DNA of 64,000 bases from a bacterium (lineage in GTDB: Bacteria > Patescibacteriota > Patescibacteriia > Magasanikbacterales > GWA2-37-8). Numbering within the stretch: position 1 is the stretch's first letter; the number at the start of each line of letters is the position of its first letter. Location: positions 36,974 to 100,973 of the forward strand of contig JBDROJ010000027.1 in NCBI GenBank assembly GCA_043810165.1, in the 5' to 3' direction. Of this stretch, positions 16,803 through 60,469 are shown in pieces. The notes beneath the pieces were generated by a model, which saw only the letters and a list, made by a program, of their open reading frames with translations, was not told the origin of the DNA and did no database searches. Made by a program: the position numbers and the translations under genes.

Positions 16803-18417
<1,615 letters not shown>

Positions 18418-18431
18418 AAATATAATTTTAG

Positions 18432-18522
18432 ACTGTCATCCCGACCGAGCGTAGCGAGTGGAGGGATCTCAGTATAACACTAAGATCCCTGAACTCGGCT
18501 TTGTCCAGCTCAGGATGACAAT
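18432..18522. repeat. GC-rich nested palindromic repeat element (family 2 variant)
   Basis: CTGTCATCCCGACCGAGCGTAGCGAG...GGATGACAAT, with an internal GGGATCT/AGATCCC palindrome. A near-identical half-copy lies at 46392-46437. Confidence 0.75.
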
Positions 18523-18525
18523 AAT

Positions 18526-18963
18526 ATGGAAAAAACCCTTAAATTTAAAATTATAACCCCGGAAAAAATCGTTTATGAAGACGATATTTTTCAGGTTACA
18601 ATTCCTACATCGGATGGTGAAATTACTGTATTGGCTAATCATATTCCTTTAGTATCGGTTTTAAAAGCAGGGGATTTGATTATAAAAGACAAAAATGATC
18701 AACATCACATTGCTATTGCCGGTGGCTTTTTAGAAGTTAAATCCAATAATCAAATCATTATTTTGGCAGATAATGCTGAACGAGCTGAAGAAATTGATTT
18801 GGAACGAGCCGAAGAAGCTAGAAAACGTGCCGAAAAACAAATGAAACAAGCTAAGTCAACTGAAGACATTGACTTTGCCAAACTTCAAGGTATAATAGAT
18901 AGAGAAATGAACAGAATTAGGGTTGGAAAAAAGTATAAAAAATTACCTAAAGCAAGATCATGA
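18526..18963 (+). CDS. atpC: F0F1 ATP synthase subunit epsilon
   Basis: N-terminal beta-sandwich pattern (ITPEKIVYEDDIFQVTIPTSDGEITVLANHIPLVSVL) and a C-terminal helical hairpin. Confidence 0.85.
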   Translation: MEKTLKFKIITPEKIVYEDDIFQVTIPTSDGEITVLANHIPLVSVLKAGDLIIKDKNDQHHIAIAGGFLEVKSNNQIIILADNAERAEEIDLERAEEARKRAEKQMKQAKSTEDIDFAKLQGIIDREMNRIRVGKKYKKLPKARS

Positions 18964-43492: not shown

Positions 43493-43650
43493 CTGCCGTT
43501 GCGAGGAGTCAGGGTGTTATTGTCATTGCAAGCCTAAGCGACCCGCCTGCCAACGCCTGAAGTCAGAGGGCAATGACGGGCAGGAGCAATCTCATACTTA
43601 CTGTAGCAACGAGACTGCTCCGTCGCTACGCTCCTCGCAATGACGATGCT
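43493..43650. repeat. compound GC-rich palindromic repeat element (family 1, nested inverted repeats)
   Basis: Outer arms CGTTGCGAGGAG / CTCCTCGCAATGACG, with inner arms GTCATTGCAAGCC / GGGCAATGAC. Contains the 63-codon ORF 43452..43643, typical of repeat-derived pseudo-ORFs. Confidence 0.75.
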
Positions 43651-45152: not shown

Positions 45153-45903
45153 GTAATTTAGATAACAAAATTCCGGCAGTTATGGCCACATTTAAAGATT
45201 CGGCTGAACCGCTTCCTTTTATAGTATACCGCTTATCCAGTAGTTTTTCAACTTGTGGATTAATTCCATGCGATTCTGAACCTAAAATATAAGCGGTCTT
45301 GATTTTTTTGTTTATTTTTAGCTCTTTTCCATTCATGGTCAAACCGGATATCTGATAACCTTTTTTCTTTAAACTAGCTAGGGTTTTGGCCAAGTCTTTA
45401 CTCTGAAATACTTTAACGCGAAAAATTGAACCCATGGTGGCGCGTACTGTCTTGGGATTGTATAAATCTACACAATCTTCAGACAAAACCACGCTATTAA
45501 CTCCAAACCAATCAGCTGTGCGAATAATAGCGCCGAGATTGCCCGGATCTTTAATACAATCTAAACAAATAATTGAATTACCGCCAATCTCATCTAACTC
45601 ATATCCAATCTGTTTTACTATAGCTAATACTCCCGGAAAAGTATCGGTATCTTTTATCTTGCCCACATCATTATCATTGCAAAAGTCTACTACTATGTGT
45701 TTTTTGTGAGCTAGATCTATTATTTTTATAAATTCTGGCTCTTGTTTCTTATTATTCTGCACAATCACTCGTTGTACCTGTGCACTCGATTCTATTGCCT
45801 CCACCATTCCTTTTACTCCCTCAACCACAAATTCACTATGCTCGCGTCGGTATTTTTTTTGTTGTAGTTTATTTATGTGCTTTAAAATTTTTGTTTGAAG
45901 CAT
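45145..45903 (-). CDS. SpoU/TrmH-family RNA 2'-O-methyltransferase (RlmB-like)
   Basis: SPOUT motifs: GNLGAIIRTADWFGV, LGSESHG and LNVAITAGILLSKL. Confidence 0.8.
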   Translation of the reverse strand: MLQTKILKHINKLQQKKYRREHSEFVVEGVKGMVEAIESSAQVQRVIVQNNKKQEPEFIKIIDLAHKKHIVVDFCNDNDVGKIKDTDTFPGVLAIVKQIGYELDEIGGNSIICLDCIKDPGNLGAIIRTADWFGVNSVVLSEDCVDLYNPKTVRATMGSIFRVKVFQSKDLAKTLASLKKKGYQISGLTMNGKELKINKKIKTAYILGSESHGINPQVEKLLDKRYTIKGSGSAESLNVAITAGILLSKLHD

Positions 45904-46655
45904 AATACTAGGTATAAAAATAAAAAAGTAGCTTTGAAAATTCTTTTTATACGTTTGGGTTGTTTAATTAAGCGATATAGCCACTCTAGACCTACTTTTT
46001 GCATCCACCTGGGAGCGCGTTTGGTTTTGCCAGAAATATAATCAAAAGCCCCGCCCACGCCCATGGCTAATTTAATACTTGATAATTTAGACAAGTTCTC
46101 ATATATCCATTTTTCTTGCTTACCATGACCAAAGGCAACAAATATAATATCCGGTTTGGTTGTGTTTATTCTTTTAATTAAGTCTTGATTTTGCTCTGAA
46201 GTTACATTCTTCAAATCCGGTCCTTTGTCATAACCAGCAATTTTTAAATTAGAGTATTTTCCATTCAATTTTTGGGTAGTTTTTTCTATCACCCGATCGT
46301 CACCAGAACCTAATAGATACACGCTTCTCCCCTGCTCTGAAGCTATTTGGCAAATATCTTGCATAAAATCTACTCCGGGAACACGTTCAAGAGATCCCTC
46401 CAATCGCTTCGCTCGGTCGGTCTGCAGGGATGACAATTTATATTTCAACCACAATCCAAACCCATCGCAAATATTCAAATCACCACTATTTAATACTTTT
46501 TTAAAATACTCGTCTTTTTGCGCATCAACCAGCATTTCCGGATTGGGCGTAAAAACCTTATGTTGTTTATCAGAATTCAAAAAACCTTCCGCCTTTTCCA
46601 AGGCTTGTTTTTTATTTACACGATCTATTCTTATTCCCATTACTTGTAGATGCAT
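45882..46655 (-). CDS. WecB/TagA/CpsF-family (GT26) glycosyltransferase carrying an in-frame half-copy of the palindromic repeat
   Basis: GT26 pattern (ICDGFGLWL...RVPGVDFM...IFVAFGHGKQEKWI). The start was trimmed to MHLQVMGIR. Residues LSSLQTDRAKRLEG are encoded by the repeat copy at 46392-46437. Confidence 0.7.
   Translation of the reverse strand: MHLQVMGIRIDRVNKKQALEKAEGFLNSDKQHKVFTPNPEMLVDAQKDEYFKKVLNSGDLNICDGFGLWLKYKLSSLQTDRAKRLEGSLERVPGVDFMQDICQIASEQGRSVYLLGSGDDRVIEKTTQKLNGKYSNLKIAGYDKGPDLKNVTSEQNQDLIKRINTTKPDIIFVAFGHGKQEKWIYENLSKLSSIKLAMGVGGAFDYISGKTKRAPRWMQKVGLEWLYRLIKQPKRIKRIFKATFLFLYLVLCFKQKF
46392..46437 (-). repeat. partial (single-arm) copy of the family-2 palindromic element inside the TagA-like CDS
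   Basis: The reverse complement TGTCATCCCTGCAGACCGACCGAGCGAAGCGATTGGAGGGATCTC aligns over ~45 nt with the 18432-18522 element. Confidence 0.7.
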
Positions 46656-54434: not shown

Positions 54435-54551
54435 AAATTTATCTTATTATACACTAAAATTGCTAAAAAGTCAAGTTTTGGCCATTGCTATCCAAATTAA
54501 ATTGTGCTATTCTAATATCTATTAAAGCCATACCAAGTTTTTTAAATTAAT

Positions 54552-54679
54552 CCTGTCATTGCGAGCGTAAGTGTTACTGTCATTGCGAGCGTAGCGAAGC
54601 AATCTCGTCGGTTCTAGTAATAACGAGATTGCTTCGCTACGCTCGCAATGACAAAAAAAACACGGCTCGCAATGACAGA
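54552..54679. repeat. GC-rich nested palindromic repeat element (family 1, full compound copy)
   Basis: Inner perfect 31-bp inverted repeat TGTCATTGCGAGCGTAGCGAAGCAATCTCGT / ACGAGATTGCTTCGCTACGCTCGCAATGACA, flanked by outer arms CTGTCATTGCGAGCG / GGCTCGCAATGACAG. Confidence 0.8.
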
Positions 54680-54714
54680 ATTAATACACCAAATCATCTG
54701 GTATAGAAAAAAAT

Positions 54715-55170
54715 ATGACTGGCAAATTACTTGCGAAAAACAAAAAAGCCTATTTTGATTATGAAATTCTGGAAACTCTAGAGGCTGGTTTAAAATTGCT
54801 TGGACATGAGGTAAAGTCAGCTAAAAATAGCAGTCTTAATCTAAAAGGCAGTTATATCACTTTCCATAAAGACAAGCCTGGCGTCAGTAATATGCATATT
54901 TCCAAATACAAGCCAGCCGGAGCCTTGCCAGACCACGATCCTGAACGCTGGAGAGATGTTTTATTGAAAAAAAAACAAATAGCTTATATAAAAGAAAAAT
55001 CAACTGAAAAGGGCTTGACAATCATACCACTTAAGGTGTATACTAGCGGACGTCTAATTAAATTAGAAATAGGCATTTGCAAAGGCAAAAAAACCTATGA
55101 TAAACGTGAAATAATCAAGAAACGTGACTTGGATAGAGAAATTAAACGTGATTTAAAAGGACAATATTAA
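54715..55170 (+). CDS. smpB: SsrA-binding protein SmpB
   Basis: N-terminus IAKNKKAYFDYEILETLEAGLKLLGHEVKS. Length 151 aa. Confidence 0.9.
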   Translation: MTGKLLAKNKKAYFDYEILETLEAGLKLLGHEVKSAKNSSLNLKGSYITFHKDKPGVSNMHISKYKPAGALPDHDPERWRDVLLKKKQIAYIKEKSTEKGLTIIPLKVYTSGRLIKLEIGICKGKKTYDKREIIKKRDLDREIKRDLKGQY

Positions 55171-55354: not shown

Positions 55355-55749
55355 GGGGGTGTCGGGCTTCGACAGGAATATTTGTTATCACCGGCATATT
55401 GAGCTGGCTCCATGCTCATAAATCTCTGGGGCGCAAACACAAATGCAAATTTGTACACAAAAGCAAAAACAGCTGTTGCACAAATGTTCAATAGCTACAA
55501 CTTTGCTCCGGCAATGGCTTAATTGCCTATGCCCATCGCGCTGGCCATACCTAGTAACCAGTTGCGGTGCCACTTACCAGGCGTAGGTTAAAAATCGTTC
55601 TGATAGATTTTTAACTGAAAGCAAATATTAGATAGCTATTTAAGTTTTGGTTCTCTTCCTACTTAATTAGCAAATTAAACAAGAGAACTAAATATGTAGA
55701 AGGTATTAACAAAATTATCTGCACGCGGGTTCAACTCCCGCCACCTCCA
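55355..55749 (+). ncRNA. ssrA: tmRNA (ssrA)
   Basis: The 5' end GGGGGUGUCGGGCUUCGACAGG matches the tmRNA 5' consensus (GGGGCUGAUUCUGGAUUCGACGGG). The 3' end GCGGGUUCAACUCCCGCC-ACCUCCA-C forms the T-arm and acceptor stem. The 7-bp acceptor pairing (5' GGGGGUG with 3' CACCUCC) includes one G-U pair, as in E. coli. An internal reading frame ends ...NFAPAMA-UAA. Located immediately downstream of smpB. Confidence 0.75.
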
Positions 55750-55768
55750 CTAAAGGTATAAACATTAT

Positions 55769-58588: not shown

Positions 58589-60469
58589 ATGAATAACGAA
58601 CATGAAATAGTTATATTGGATTTTGGCTCCCAATATACACATCTTATTGCCCGTCGTATTCGCGAATTGGGCTTGGTTTCGCATATTTATGATAATGATA
58701 CGCCTGTAAGCCAATTAGATAATGCAGTTGGCATAATACTATCCGGAGGACCTAAAAGCGTGCTGAACCAACAGCGACTTGATTATGATCCAAGACTTTT
58801 TGATTTAAATCTGCCAATTTTGGGAATGTGCTATGGACATCAATTAATTACTCAACATTTTGGCGGACAAGTTGTGTCCGGAAAAAGCAGAGAATACGGC
58901 CTGGCCAAAATAAAAACAAAGCCCTGCTCCCTGTTTGAACAAGTGGACTCGCAAACTCAAGTATGGATGAGCCATGGAGATCATGTAGCCGAACTGCCTC
59001 CGGGATTTGAATCTATTGCTATTACTAATAACGATGCCAACACGGCCATGGCCAATACGGATAAAAATATCTACAGCCTGCAATTTCATCCGGAAGTAAC
59101 TCATACAACTCAAGGCAAACAGATGCTGTCCAATTTCATATTTAACATCTGTAAAGCTGAAAGAAATTGGACTACAAATAAAATGTTGGAACAAATTCAA
59201 TCTGAAATTAAACAACAAGCTGGATATAAAAATATTTTTCTCTTAATTAGCGGTGGAGTTGATTCCACGGTTTGTTTTGCTTTATTAGAAAAAACCTTGG
59301 GCAAAAAACGAGTCTATGGCCTGCATATTGATCATGGTTTGATGCGTTTAAATGAATCGGCACAAGTTAATCAAGCTTTGAAAAATATCGGATTAGATGA
59401 CCTTCATATTTACAATGCTGAAAAGCAATATTTGCATGCTCTTGACGGCGTGGCCGATCCTGAACAAAAGCGAAAAATTATTGGAGATTTGTTTTTAGAC
59501 ATAGCTGGCCAGGTTATGGTTAAAAATGGCATGGATGACGGGCAATGGCTATTGGGCCAAGGCACAATTTATCCGGACACCGTTGAATCTGGCGGTACCA
59601 AACAAGCTGATTTAATCAAAACTCATCATAATCGTGTTCCTCGAGTGCAAGAAATGATTGCTCAAGGAAAAATCATTGAACCAATCAGAGAATTGTACAA
59701 AGACGAAGTGCGTCAAATCGGCCTTAAACTAGGATTGCCAAAAAATCTGCTTTATCGCCATCCTTTTCCTGGCCCTGGTTTGGGGATTAGATGTTTGTGT
59801 TCAGATGGCTTATCATTGTCAGCCCGAAGGGCGATGCAATCCCGTCTTATCCCTGTCATTGCGAGCGTAAGCGAAGCAAGCCCGTTATTACAGAACCAAC
59901 AGGATTGCTTCGCTTACGCTCGCAATGACAAAGAAAAACAGACTCTCAATAACAAATTTTACAAACTACCTATTAAATCAGTGGGTGTGCAAGGTGATGA
60001 GCGTTCTTATGCTTATCCGGCGTTAATAAATAAACTTGATTGGGAAGAACTGCGCGTTATTGCACCGCAAATTACCAATCAGCATCAAGACATTAATCGC
60101 GTTTTAGTTTTGGTTTCAGGTAATCCAGATAAAATTGCACAATCAGATTTAAAGCCTGCATATATAACAAAACAAAGGCTTGAACTTTTGCGCCAAATTG
60201 ATCACATAGTGAATAAGAATATTCTTAACAATCCCGATTGTTCTCACATATGGCAATTGCCCGTAGTAATGATTCCTTTTGGTTATAATAAGAAAGAAAC
60301 CGTCGTCTTAAGACCGGTTGAATCAGAAGAAGCCATGACTGTATCTTGGGCGCAAATTTCCGATGGTATTTTAAATGAAATTATACAGGAGATTAACCGG
60401 CTTGAAGCAGTTGATTTTATCATGTATGATATTACCAATAAACCACCAGGTACAATTGAGTGGGAATGA
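58589..60469 (+). CDS. guaA: GMP synthase (glutamine-hydrolysing) carrying an in-frame palindromic-element insertion
   Basis: GATase domain (GMCYGHQL). PP-loop SGGVDSTV. C-terminal dimerisation region (KSVGVQGDERSY). At 626 aa it is ~100 aa longer than typical, and includes the repeat-encoded segment PVIASVSEASPLLQNQQDCFAYARNDKEKQ. Confidence 0.9.
   Translation: MNNEHEIVILDFGSQYTHLIARRIRELGLVSHIYDNDTPVSQLDNAVGIILSGGPKSVLNQQRLDYDPRLFDLNLPILGMCYGHQLITQHFGGQVVSGKSREYGLAKIKTKPCSLFEQVDSQTQVWMSHGDHVAELPPGFESIAITNNDANTAMANTDKNIYSLQFHPEVTHTTQGKQMLSNFIFNICKAERNWTTNKMLEQIQSEIKQQAGYKNIFLLISGGVDSTVCFALLEKTLGKKRVYGLHIDHGLMRLNESAQVNQALKNIGLDDLHIYNAEKQYLHALDGVADPEQKRKIIGDLFLDIAGQVMVKNGMDDGQWLLGQGTIYPDTVESGGTKQADLIKTHHNRVPRVQEMIAQGKIIEPIRELYKDEVRQIGLKLGLPKNLLYRHPFPGPGLGIRCLCSDGLSLSARRAMQSRLIPVIASVSEASPLLQNQQDCFAYARNDKEKQTLNNKFYKLPIKSVGVQGDERSYAYPALINKLDWEELRVIAPQITNQHQDINRVLVLVSGNPDKIAQSDLKPAYITKQRLELLRQIDHIVNKNILNNPDCSHIWQLPVVMIPFGYNKKETVVLRPVESEEAMTVSWAQISDGILNEIIQEINRLEAVDFIMYDITNKPPGTIEWE
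59852..59931. repeat. palindromic repeat element (family 1) inserted in frame within guaA
   Basis: CTGTCATTGCGAGCGTAAGCGAAGCAA ... TTGCTTCGCTTACGCTCGCAATGACAA with a 25-nt loop. The guaA ORF reads through without a stop. Confidence 0.8.

What the first reader, a model, noticed from the sequence alone, without database searches (positions are those of the whole stretch)
46392..46437. Second in-frame repeat insertion: half-copy of a related palindromic element inside a TagA/WecG-like glycosyltransferase gene
The reverse complement of 46392-46437 (TGTCATCCCTGCAGACCGACCGAGCGAAGCGATTGGAGGGATCTC) aligns over ~45 nt with one arm of the intergenic element at 18432-18522 between atpD and atpC. It encodes LSSLQTDRAKRLEG in frame within the GT26 protein, just upstream of the conserved LERVPGxDF motif. 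The second arm is absent, implying an old insertion that has partly decayed or been domesticated. Two independent conserved genes carrying copies argues for a mobile element with a preference, or tolerance, for in-frame coding insertions.
Basis: seen in the sequence. Interest (0 to 1): 0.75.

Follow-up and report, generated by a model that had tools for sequence, protein, structure and literature searches.

The report
Ssn-type hairpin repeat inside tagA
A 45-base copy of a widespread hairpin-forming DNA repeat sits in frame inside a cell-wall glycosyltransferase gene of a candidate-phyla bacterium, adding 15 amino acids to a flexible surface loop; many related bacteria carry such repeats at the same spot, and at least one of those inserts is much younger than its host gene.

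Summary
Window 46392-46436 (-) matches one arm of the atpD-atpC palindrome (alignment score 53; null 14±2.2, max 26). It is a 15-codon in-frame insertion (L74-S88) in a GT26 TagA/WecG gene.

It is not a private repeat. The same unit occurs letter for letter in metagenomic contigs of GC 0.37-0.72. It belongs to the published TGTC/CGTC-tagged hairpin repeats (Di Nocera 2013; includes Rickettsia RPE-4/6), which flank small GIY-YIG "Ssn" ssDNA nucleases (Chenal 2025). I recovered that link independently.

The "decayed half-palindrome" reading is not supported:
- Lone units are as common as pairs (38 vs 40).
- The copy matches consensus at 34/35 bases.
- Removing 45 nt restores exactly the empty-loop length.

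New here:
- 41 of the 120 closest Patescibacteria orthologues have an enlarged loop here; most carry recognisable repeats.
- They are not a clade.
- One insert is 96.6% identical between host genes only 71% identical.
- Close filled/empty pairs differ by a short replaced patch that includes a coupled Trp.
- guaA shows the same recurrent-loop behaviour.

Verdict: a long-loop variant of a known kind. How it arrives is unresolved.

The parts
46392..46436 (-). The 45-nt in-frame insert (codons L74-S88, LSSLQTDRAKRLEGS). It is one complete TGTC-tagged hairpin repeat unit.
   Evidence: Sequence; unique matches; alignment score 53 vs null maximum 26; 15 extra residues relative to empty-loop orthologues; GC 0.60 peak.
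46432..46435 (-). Unpaired 5' TGTC tag. It includes the GTC directly before the stem, which is the cleavage determinant in published Ssn assays.
   Evidence: [quoted passage not shown]
46426..46431 (-). 5' half of the stem, ATCCCT.
   Evidence: Anchored-stem test gives a 6-bp stem, 1% of shuffles as good. The minimum-energy ssDNA fold uses this stem.
46419..46426 (-). Extra 8 nt (TGCAGACC) absent from all other copies seen. It brings the unit from 37 to 45 nt, i.e. to a multiple of three. Its first T also serves as the sixth base of the 5' stem half.
   Evidence: Comparison with 18434-18470 and with 99 metagenomic copies, none of which has it. The frame-restoring role is an inference.
46406..46412 (-). 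GCGAAGC core within the loop. The atpD-atpC copy has GCGTAGC.
   Evidence: Sequence. Its identity as a stable GNA-triloop DNA mini-hairpin is from my own knowledge and was not tested.
46393..46399 (-). 3' half of the stem (AGGGAT, 46394-46399) followed by the C at 46393 immediately after the palindrome, which is the binding determinant in published Ssn assays.
   Evidence: base after stem is C in 27/31 units, including this one; PMC11893778.
45882..46655 (-). Host gene: GT26 WecG/TagA-family glycosyltransferase, 257 aa plus stop. The ORF is intact.
   Evidence: Pfam PF03808 7e-54; NCBIfam TarA/WecG; PDB 7mpk 3.7e-46; AF2 pLDDT 93.6. Catalytic D64, R228, R235 and R238 are invariant in alignment A1.
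18434..18520 (+). Reference two-arm (head-to-head) element of the same sub-family, between atpD and atpC. Arms are 18434-18470 and 18484-18520.
   Evidence: Sequence; inverted repeat I2; ssDNA fold z = -3.5; gene identities.
59810..59930 (+). Companion case: repeat-derived in-frame stretch in guaA (residues about 408-447). It is a degenerate lone unit followed by a two-arm TGTCATTGCGAGCG element (59847-59937 as arms).
   Evidence: The orthologue loop is 37-43 aa against 76 here.
54546..54685 (+). Intergenic two-arm element of the TGTCATTGC sub-family, with extra partial units, upstream of smpB.
43506..43650 (+). Intergenic composite of TGTCATTGC-type units between the M23 peptidase gene and gltX.

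Best explanation
Shown:
- The 45-nt segment is one whole unit of the TGTC/CGTC-tagged hairpin repeats. This is the class called CGTC REPs by Di Nocera 2013 and NTS or Ssn-related motifs by Chenal 2025.
- Its layout is an unpaired TGTC tag, a stem that starts A-T, a long loop containing GCGAAGC, the complementary stem, then a C.
- It lies in frame in the H4-H5 surface loop of TagA, 10 residues after catalytic D64. If the gene is expressed it is translated as 15 extra residues.
- The rest of the enzyme is intact: the fold is predicted with confidence and all four catalytic residues are conserved.
- It is a solo unit, not a worn-down palindrome.
- At least one related insert at this site is young relative to its host genes.
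- This loop is a recurrently occupied, exchangeable site. 41 of the 120 nearest Patescibacteria orthologues have an enlarged loop here, and most of those carry recognisable repeats. In all six filled alleles examined as DNA the left junction is at the same codon boundary. The unit bodies belong to different sub-families and, where flanking DNA was informative (the window and L082), match the host genome's own repeats.

Inferred:
- The unit's loop tolerates length changes, so copies whose total length is a multiple of three survive in genes. Here an extra 8 nt makes 37 nt into 45 nt.
- The copy arrived, or was renewed, by DNA exchange and not by descent. The most likely route is a short recombination or gene-conversion patch carrying the repeat plus about 15-25 nt of flank, including the coupled Trp. 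The unit body would then be homogenised against resident copies.
- The family as a whole is generated and spread by small GIY-YIG Ssn-type ssDNA nucleases, whose genes the units flank.
- Whether this genome encodes such a nuclease is unknown.
For: Identity of the unit:
-.
- The exact 22-mer core is found in 92 metagenomic stretches with GC 0.37-0.72, nearly all with the TGTCATCCCGACC head.

Architecture:
- The stem anchored right after GTC averages 6.0 bp, against 2.4 bp in shuffles. A C follows the stem in 27/31 units. The TagA unit has a 6-bp stem, p≈0.01.

Class and nuclease link:
- Literature.
- Inverted units directly flank Ssn-like GIY-YIG ORFs in L121, L178, L188 and L195 and in 11 of 12 further loci.
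- The protein family is UPF0213-like.

Insertion and position:
-.
- The H4-H5 loop is mobile and D65 is catalytic.
- AF2 gives pLDDT 93.6 overall, dipping to 85 and 76 only across residues 71-90.

Solo unit, not decayed:
- 38 lone vs 40 paired copies.
- A lone intergenic unit occurs in L082.
- Excision restores the empty-loop length.

Recurrent site:
- 41/120 orthologues have enlarged loops.
- They are not a clade: identity is 0.609 within, 0.604 between and 0.607 among empties.
- Trp is present in 36/41 filled alleles against 5/79 empty ones.

Young bodies and patch exchange:
- Own-genome matches.
- Close filled/empty pairs have replaced flanks.
- The insert is 96.6% identical against 71.4% for the host genes.

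Same behaviour in guaA.
Against: - The strict published SRM search pattern does not match any unit in the window, because the loops are too long.
- The single-unit ssDNA fold is not better than shuffles (z = -0.24). The hairpin therefore rests on anchored complementarity and on the literature.
- No GIY-YIG motif occurs in the 64-kb window. The rest of the contig could not be fetched, so a cognate nuclease in this genome is unproven.
- For the window's own gene no close relative exists (next best 59-60% identity). Its age and route of arrival are therefore extrapolated from other lineages.
- In the L216/L081 comparison the flanks are no more similar than the gene average. This fits body-only conversion or re-insertion better than a recent shared patch.
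- Some orthologues carry units in other frames and offsets, and from an unrelated GC-rich repeat family. At least some events are therefore independent insertions.
- The orthologue set is nearly star-like (about 60% identity all round), so the non-clade result has limited power.
Confidence: 0.7

Rival explanations
1. An old insertion of a full two-arm palindrome, inherited vertically, has lost its second arm by decay or been domesticated.
For: - Two-arm forms do occur at this site in other orthologues, e.g. P0069, P0072, P0080 ending in ...GMT.
- Some orthologues have loops of 34-41 residues with no recognisable repeat, which look like decayed inserts.
- The left junction is shared by all six DNA-level alleles, as common descent would predict.
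Against: - No residue of a second arm remains. The insert is exactly 45 nt over the empty-loop length.
- The unit is 34/35 identical to the cross-phylum consensus, while orthologous genes are only 55-60% identical as proteins.
- Lone units are half of all copies.
- Filled alleles are not a clade.
- The insert is 96.6% identical against 71% for the genes in one pair. A filled allele is nested among empty sisters at 89% identity.
Confidence: 0.1
2. Independent de novo insertions. An Ssn-type nuclease, or another enzyme, inserts units site-specifically into this position of tagA, and into the guaA loop, again and again in different lineages. The Trp and flank changes evolve afterwards as compensation.
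For: - The same junction is seen in six of six alleles.
- Unit bodies match each genome's own repeats where this could be checked.
- The insert is far younger than the gene, and the flanks are not co-transferred.
- Different frames, offsets and even an unrelated repeat family occur at the same loop.
- The nuclease-flanked architecture resembles an IS.
Against: - In close filled/empty pairs, five to seven flanking residues on each side differ completely, while the rest of the protein is 84-89% identical. That is hard to reach by point mutation in so little time.
- No target-site duplication or conserved target motif is visible at intergenic copies.
- No transposition activity has been shown for Ssn; the paper reports only ssDNA cleavage.
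Confidence: 0.2
3. No mobile DNA is involved. The similarity is chance, or reflects convergent selection for a useful peptide in the TagA loop.
For: The peptide sits in a functionally interesting loop next to the catalytic Asp.
Against: - Nucleotide-level identity to an intergenic copy is far beyond chance.
- The unit is letter-identical to copies in unrelated organisms.
- There is a local GC spike.
- Orthologues use all three reading frames of the repeat, so the DNA is what is shared, not the peptide.
Confidence: 0.01
4. Assembly artefact. A repeat shared among genomes was spliced into the gene by the metagenome assembler.
For: The unit is shared between many organisms in the same kinds of samples, a situation in which assemblers can mis-join.
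Against: - The insert is in frame with an exact multiple-of-three length and carries a unique 8-nt internal addition.
- Both flanks belong to the same gene.
- Equivalent inserts occur in dozens of independently assembled orthologues from different projects.
Confidence: 0.02

Closest known systems
Ssn-related motifs (NTS/SRM) and SsnA GIY-YIG ssDNA nucleases (Chenal et al. 2025, PMC11893778)
   Same: - A GTC(A/T) tag directly 5' of a hairpin whose stem begins AT, with a C directly 3' of it.
- Units occur singly and as inverted pairs.
- Inverted units bracket small (~93 aa) single-domain GIY-YIG genes, which I confirmed in Patescibacteria, Chloroflexota-type and GC-rich loci.
- Invariant Y17 and E64 in my alignment carry the same numbers as the residues mutated in the paper.
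   Different: - The window's units have 5-6-bp stems and 12-28-nt loops, and fail the published degenerate SRM pattern.
- The paper does not mention intragenic or in-frame copies, or Patescibacteria.
- No nuclease gene is visible in this window.
CGTC-tagged REP superfamily (Di Nocera et al. 2013, PMC3733652)
   Same: - A terminal CGTC tag often changed to TGTC.
- Stems with complementary A-T at the first two positions.
- Predominantly head-to-head dimers.
- Found inside ORFs of known proteins.
- Includes Neisseria dRS3 and Rickettsia RPE-4/RPE-6.
   Different: - Described stems are 8-9 bp with 4-5-nt loops and a CCA tail. Here the stem is 6 bp, the loop 26 nt and the tail CTC.
- The described phyla did not include Patescibacteria.
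- No enzyme was known at the time.
Rickettsia palindromic elements (RPE; Ogata et al. 2000, 2002, as cited in PMC10969869)
   Same: - Repeats inserted in frame in unrelated housekeeping genes.
- They are translated.
- They sit at positions judged compatible with the protein fold.
   Different: - RPEs are about 100-150 bp with a family-specific conserved peptide. This is a 45-nt single hairpin unit.
- I have not seen recurrent occupation of one loop across many divergent lineages, with inserts younger than the genes, described for RPEs.
REP/REPIN elements with RAYT transposases (GTAG-tagged)
   Same: Short hairpin repeats, singlets and inverted doublets, tied to one dedicated small enzyme gene that the repeats flank. 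They act as ssDNA hairpins.
   Different: The tag is TGTC, not GTAG. The associated enzyme is a GIY-YIG nuclease, not a Y1/HUH transposase.
Homing-endonuclease mobility with co-conversion of flanking markers
   Same: An insert occupies one defined site in a conserved gene. It appears in non-sister lineages and comes with a short replaced flank.
   Different: - No endonuclease is encoded in the insert.
- In one comparison the flanks were not co-converted with the body.
- This is a resemblance only, and was not tested.

Membership tests
CGTC/TGTC-tagged REP superfamily (Di Nocera 2013) | [quoted passage not shown] | tested here: met
   TGTC at 46435-46432 directly before the stem. The same tag is present in 72/78 metagenomic copies. 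Definition.
CGTC/TGTC-tagged REP superfamily (Di Nocera 2013) | Stem whose first two positions are complementary A-T pairs | tested here: met
   ATCCCT...AGGGAT.
CGTC/TGTC-tagged REP superfamily (Di Nocera 2013) | Stem of 8-9 bp, loop of 4-5 nt, CCA tail | tested here: not met
   6-bp stem, 26-nt loop, tail CTC. GC-rich relatives such as L208-L215 do meet it.
CGTC/TGTC-tagged REP superfamily (Di Nocera 2013) | Mostly head-to-head dimers, many copies per genome | tested here: inconclusive
   The window holds three head-to-head elements (18.4, 54.5, 59.9 kb), one intergenic composite (43.5 kb) and this monomer. Only 64 kb of the genome is available.
Ssn-related motif, SRM (Chenal 2025) | Match to HGTCWYN(0-2)YYVSBRHN(0-5)WNVSBRGN(0-2)RNCYNB | tested here: not met
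   0 hits in the window. The TagA unit and all other window units fail, while NTS and L210 pass. The loop length is the cause.
Ssn-related motif, SRM (Chenal 2025) | Three nucleotides 5' of the palindrome (cleavage) and the C immediately 3' of it (binding) are conserved | tested here: met
   GTC at 46434-46432 and C at 46393.
Ssn-related motif, SRM (Chenal 2025) | Inverted units flank a small single-domain GIY-YIG (cd10448/UPF0213-type) gene | tested here: met
   Met for the long-loop class in relatives: L121, L178, L188, L195. Also met in 11/12 more distant loci. Protein family. For this genome it is not testable: there is no GIY-YIG motif in the window and the contig is not retrievable.
Ssn-related motif, SRM (Chenal 2025) | Cleaved as ssDNA, not dsDNA or RNA, by the cognate nuclease | not testable with these tools
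   Requires biochemistry.
Rickettsia palindromic elements (RPE) | In-frame insertion in conserved protein-coding genes at fold-compatible positions | tested here: met
   guaA also meets it.
Rickettsia palindromic elements (RPE) | About 100-150-bp element encoding a family-specific conserved peptide | tested here: not met
   The insert is 45 nt. Orthologues read the repeat in all three frames.
MITE (classical) | Terminal inverted repeats plus target-site duplication | tested here: not met
   No duplication is visible at the junctions of 18434-18520, 54546-54685, 59847-59937 or the TagA copy.
GTAG REP / RAYT | GTAG tag and association with a Y1 transposase | tested here: not met
   The tag is TGTC. 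The associated gene is GIY-YIG.
Rfam RNA families | Match to any curated covariance model | tested here: not met
   No hit at E ≤ 1 on 46300-46520 or 18380-18570. At gathering threshold only tmRNA is found in the window.

The most novel reading that the evidence does not exclude
Ssn-type hairpin units do more than tolerate coding DNA. Together with a short co-adapted flank (W-L-x-x-x ... x-E-R), they form an exchangeable cassette at fixed "landing" loops of housekeeping enzymes (TagA H4-H5, a second TagA loop, a guaA loop) in Patescibacteria. The cassette would be renewed and passed between lineages by a nuclease-driven, homing-like or transformation-linked recombination process. That would give a mechanism for the 25-year-old puzzle of in-frame "selfish" palindromes first seen in Rickettsia, and a way for ultra-small bacteria to vary surface loops of essential proteins.
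Probability: 0.15. Interest if true: 0.8.

Novelty: new variant of a known kind. Interest (0 to 1): 0.55.

Why it matters
- In-frame palindromic repeats in essential genes have been known from Rickettsia since 2000, without a mechanism.
- The repeat class was linked to a dedicated nuclease only in 2025. That work did not look at coding copies or at the candidate phyla radiation.
- This locus ties the three threads together. A long-loop variant of the same repeat class sits in housekeeping genes of Patescibacteria.
- The orthologue data show the same protein loops being occupied again and again. At least one insert is far younger than its host genes, and short flanking patches are replaced.
- The mode of spread therefore becomes a testable question: site-specific insertion against recombinational exchange.
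- TagA and guaA are convenient natural reporters for that test.
- Practical warning: the published SRM search pattern misses this long-loop class. Gene callers and protein aligners will meet these inserts in many CPR proteins.

Tried and rejected
- A plain structural scan (GTCAT + 3 nt ... complementary 3 nt + AT) was too noisy in AT-rich DNA: 206 hits against 163 in a shuffle. I abandoned it.
- An nhmmer profile of verified units over 84 TagA loci found few copies outside a handful of loci. It was too sparse for a coding-versus-intergenic census.
- ssDNA folding energies of single units are not better than shuffles, so I did not use energy as evidence for the hairpin.
- Rfam gave nothing, either at gathering or at permissive threshold.
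- I treated the GIY-YIG association as a possible discovery until the literature showed it was published in 2025. It is now cited as prior knowledge that I reproduced.
- Full-text searches for the core sequence and its encoded peptides found no paper.
- I tried to extend beyond the window to look for a nuclease gene, using three window proteins. All three were reported as not on record.
- A clade test for filled alleles showed no separation. The set is nearly star-like, so the power is limited.
- Species-representative genomes gave few repeat-type loops, only L016 and L023. The metagenomic protein set was more informative.
- I considered that the Trp upstream of the insert marked a clade. I rejected this because no other column co-varies and because close filled/empty pairs differ in it.
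Full report
THE OBSERVATION

On the minus strand, window 46391-46436 reads TTGTCATCCC-TGCAGACC-GACCGAGCGAAGCGATTGGAGGGATCTC. The left arm of the palindrome between ATP synthase beta and epsilon reads TGTCATCCC-GACCGAGCGTAGCGAGTGGAGGGATCTC at 18434-18470.
- A 28-mer allowing the two variable positions occurs only at these two places, with none in 100 shuffles. TGTCATCCC also occurs only there.
- A gapped local alignment scores 53. The null is 13.95 ± 2.2 with a maximum of 26, from 3,926 random windows of the same sequence.
- The segment is the GC peak of an AT-rich gene, 0.60.
The similarity is therefore real and far beyond chance.

THE HOST GENE AND THE INDEL

The ORF 45882-46655 (-) is a 257-aa GT26 WecG/TagA/CpsF glycosyltransferase.
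- Pfam PF03808 scores 7e-54, with 181 residues covering 166 profile positions. NCBIfam gives TarA/WecG-type models.
- Against solved T. italicus TagA (7mpk, 3.7e-46) the only sizeable gap is at LSSLQTDRAKRLEGS.
- In an alignment of the 120 closest proteins (Patescibacteria, mostly Magasanikbacteria, 45-60% identity), the stretch from LNxCDG to VDFM is 26-28 residues in the empty state and 41 here.
- The insert is thus exactly 15 codons, L74-S88, at 46392-46436.
- Synteny (clpB divergent, then tagA-spoU-gltX-M23 peptidase) is conserved in fetched relatives, so these are orthologues.
- The insert lies in the H4-H5 loop. In T. italicus (residues 74-82) this loop is mobile, follows catalytic D65 and packs against the C-terminal tail on substrate binding (PMC8784642).
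- An AlphaFold2 model is confident (mean pLDDT 93.6, pTM 0.91). The only internal dip is in residues 71-90, with block means 85 and 76. The insert is modelled as an extension of H4 plus a short helix.
- D64, R228, R235 and R238 are equivalent to the catalytic D65, R214, R221 and R224. All four are invariant in the orthologue alignment.
The gene looks functional.

WHAT THE REPEAT IS

The window has four more loci of related units:
- the atpD-atpC element of the same TCATCCC sub-family;
- three loci of a TGTCATTGCGAGCG sub-family: intergenic at 43.5 and 54.5 kb, and inside guaA at 59.8-59.9 kb.

A scan of public metagenomes with the 22-nt core returned 92 stretches. In them the whole unit, TGTCATCCCGACC-GAGCG(A/T)AGCGAGTGGAGGGATC, is letter-identical in contigs with GC from 0.37 to 0.72. 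It is therefore not private to this organism. The TagA copy differs from that consensus at 1 of 35 positions, plus the extra 8 nt.

While reading these copies I noticed two that lie 46 nt from the only two GIY-YIG motifs in 589 kb.
- In L121 a 94-aa GIY-YIG ORF (Pfam PF01541) sits between two inward-facing units.
- The family has thousands of ~93-aa members, mainly in Patescibacteria and Chloroflexota.
- Three further independent loci (L178, L188, L195) show the same bracketing, as do 11 of 12 more distant loci from GC-rich hosts.

The literature shows this is already known.
- Di Nocera et al. 2013 defined CGTC-tagged REPs. The tag is often TGTC, stems start with A-T pairs, and head-to-head dimers predominate. 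They occur inside ORFs, include Rickettsia RPE-4/RPE-6 and Neisseria dRS3, and had no known enzyme.
- Chenal et al. 2025 showed that small single-domain GIY-YIG proteins (Ssn) are flanked by such hairpins (NTS/SRM). The proteins cut them as ssDNA only. The three bases 5' of the palindrome matter for cleavage, and the C just 3' of it matters for binding. They note that NTS-ssnA-NTS looks like an insertion sequence.
- That paper does not mention intragenic copies or Patescibacteria.

MEMBERSHIP

- The TagA unit has the TGTC tag, an A-T-initiated stem (ATCCCT/AGGGAT) and the 3' C.
- I ran an anchored-stem test on units chosen without reference to pairing. The mean stem is 6.0 bp against 2.4 bp in shuffles (n = 31). 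A C follows the stem in 27 of 31. The TagA unit has a 6-bp stem, matched by 1% of shuffles.
- The strict published SRM pattern matches nothing in the window, because the loops here are 12-28 nt and not 0-5 nt. It also misses the unit flanking the nuclease gene in L195.
- Single-unit folding energy is unremarkable (z = -0.24). Only the two-arm element stands out (z = -3.5).
- Rfam has no matching family.
I therefore file it as a long-loop variant of the CGTC/SRM class. It works like that class, but it fails the narrow published definitions on stem and loop size.

HALF-COPY OR WHOLE UNIT?

- Among non-redundant metagenomic copies of this very unit, 38 are lone and 40 have an inverted partner.
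- Lone intergenic units occur in relatives (L082 2782-2827).
- Deleting the 45 nt leaves the seven loop residues of the empty state (WLKYK|LE), with nothing left over from a second arm.
- The unit is near-consensus, not eroded.
- The canonical unit between the same junctions is 37 nt. The TagA copy carries an extra TGCAGACC seen in none of the 99 other copies, giving 45 nt. I infer that this addition is what keeps the frame.
The "decayed palindrome" reading is not supported.

THE SITE IS RECURRENTLY OCCUPIED

- 41 of the 120 closest orthologues have enlarged loops (33-73 residues) at this position.
- Most of them encode recognisable repeat peptides, as single units (LSSRAKRSGAEGSL..., LSLRG..DEAIQS) or as two-arm forms ending in ...GMT.
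- A few use other frames and offsets (CHSERSEESL, VIPSEPRGDEGSL) or belong to an unrelated GC-rich repeat family.
- Filled alleles are not a clade. Mean identity is 0.609 within them, 0.604 to empties and 0.607 among empties. No other column separates them.
- A Trp five codons upstream is tightly coupled to occupancy: 36/41 filled against 5/79 empty.
- At DNA level all six filled alleles examined share the same left junction, a codon boundary followed by YTGTCAT or, in L084, a decayed version of it.
- Their bodies belong to different sub-families. The inserts of the window and of L082 match repeats elsewhere in their own genomes, not each other.

CLOSE PAIRS

- P0072 (filled) is 89% identical to P0050 and P0075 (empty). 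P0019 is 88% identical to P0031, and P0027 is 84% identical to P0066.
- In each pair the native loop residues are replaced, not just interrupted: QIFAKFKT-RVPGI becomes WLATR-[repeat]-IE-RISGV. The Trp therefore travels with the repeat.
- At DNA level L216 (filled) and L217 (empty) are about 85% identical across uppS-tagA-gltX. Identity falls to 0.62-0.66 only in a patch of about 15 nt to the left and about 24 nt to the right of the insert.
- The insert of L216 is 96.6% identical over 88 nt to that of L081. The two host genes are 71.4% identical over 791 nt, and the immediate flanks are at the gene average, 11/15 and 15/21.
- So at this site at least one insert body is much younger than its host genes. 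Simple vertical inheritance with decay is excluded for that pair.
- Two explanations remain: (a) allelic patch exchange plus conversion of the body by resident or incoming copies, or (b) repeated site-specific insertion. I favour (a) for the flank replacement, but cannot exclude (b) for the bodies.

THE COMPANION GENE

- guaA (58589-60469, GMP synthase) carries a repeat-derived stretch at 59810-59930.
- In 120 orthologues the stretch between GPGLGIRCLC and LPIKSVGVQGD is mostly 37-43 residues in the nearest relatives, against 76 here.
- At least 15 orthologues carry repeat peptides at the same place, mostly in the VIxS/P frame.
Recurrent occupation of particular loops appears to be general.

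LIMITS

- No close relative of this particular tagA exists in the databases (next best 59-60%), so the age and route of this copy are extrapolated.
- The rest of the contig could not be fetched. The window has no GIY-YIG motif, so a cognate nuclease in this genome is unproven.
- No insertion activity has been demonstrated for Ssn proteins.
- The orthologue set is nearly star-like, which weakens the phylogenetic argument.

VERDICT

The object is a solo, near-consensus unit of a known repeat class, in a long-loop form not captured by the published motif. It sits in frame in a permissive, recurrently exchanged loop of TagA. The kind is known. The variant, the host phylum and the site dynamics are new.

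Noticed in passing
window 59810-59930 (guaA, 58589-60469 +): guaA carries a degenerate lone unit plus a two-arm TGTCATTGC element in frame. The same loop is occupied by repeat peptides in at least 15 of 120 orthologues, mostly in the 'VIxS/P' frame.
   Followed up: yes
TagA orthologues P0072 and P0066 (the loop after GYNKGP; window equivalent about 46150-46215): TagA has a second insertion-prone loop. P0072 has 26 extra residues there. P0066 has about 60 extra, clearly repeat-derived (CHCEE...PRNDA). The window's gene is not enlarged at this second loop.
   Followed up: no
TagA residue W69 (window 46449-46451, - strand): A Trp five codons upstream of the junction is present in 36/41 filled alleles and 5/79 empty ones. 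In close filled/empty pairs it changes together with the insert. It could be a compensatory anchor for the lengthened helix H4, or part of an exchanged patch.
   Followed up: partly
TagA orthologues P0035, P0090, P0093, P0104: An unrelated GC-rich repeat family (peptides LSPSxxEGVGGV ... PPLGKRR) occupies the same TagA loop at the same offset in alleles that lack the Trp.
   Followed up: no
L085-L177 (metagenome and viral contigs): The 35-nt unit is letter-identical in contigs whose GC ranges from 0.37 to 0.72. That implies either very recent spread across distant taxa or very strong constraint on the DNA itself. One copy is on a contig classed as viral (L085).
   Followed up: partly
L195 about 1875-1960 (Ca. 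Aquicultor, downstream of the GIY-YIG gene): The outer end of the terminal unit is repeated four times in tandem (TCAGAATGACAAACAGT-like). This looks like stuttered end copies.
   Followed up: no
window 43506-43650 and L082 2782-2827: The gltX / M23-peptidase intergenic spacer holds units both in the window and in a distant relative. Some intergenic spots may therefore also be recurrently occupied.
   Followed up: no
L143 (Ga0210057_1000162, contig 120,660 nt, GC 0.37): This contig is almost the same length as the one holding the window's proteins (120,616 nt) and has similar GC. It carries a unit not present in the window, so it may be the same or a sister organism. Only 1,158 nt were available.
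   Followed up: no
L044, L049, L051, L055, L059, L068, L073 (Peregrinibacteria/Gracilibacteria TagA): These lineages have a conserved, hydrophobic 48-56-residue H4-H5 loop with no repeat signature. It is a different, apparently fixed elaboration of the same loop.
   Followed up: no
window TagA residue Q219 (46001-45999, - strand): The window's protein has Gln where at least 90% of aligned orthologues have Arg (equivalent to T. italicus R205). It is not one of the four residues shown to be catalytic.
   Followed up: no
window 55355-55752 (+) and 54715-55170 (+): tmRNA (Rfam RF00023, 134 bits) lies directly after smpB. The 54.5-kb palindrome lies just upstream of smpB.
   Followed up: no
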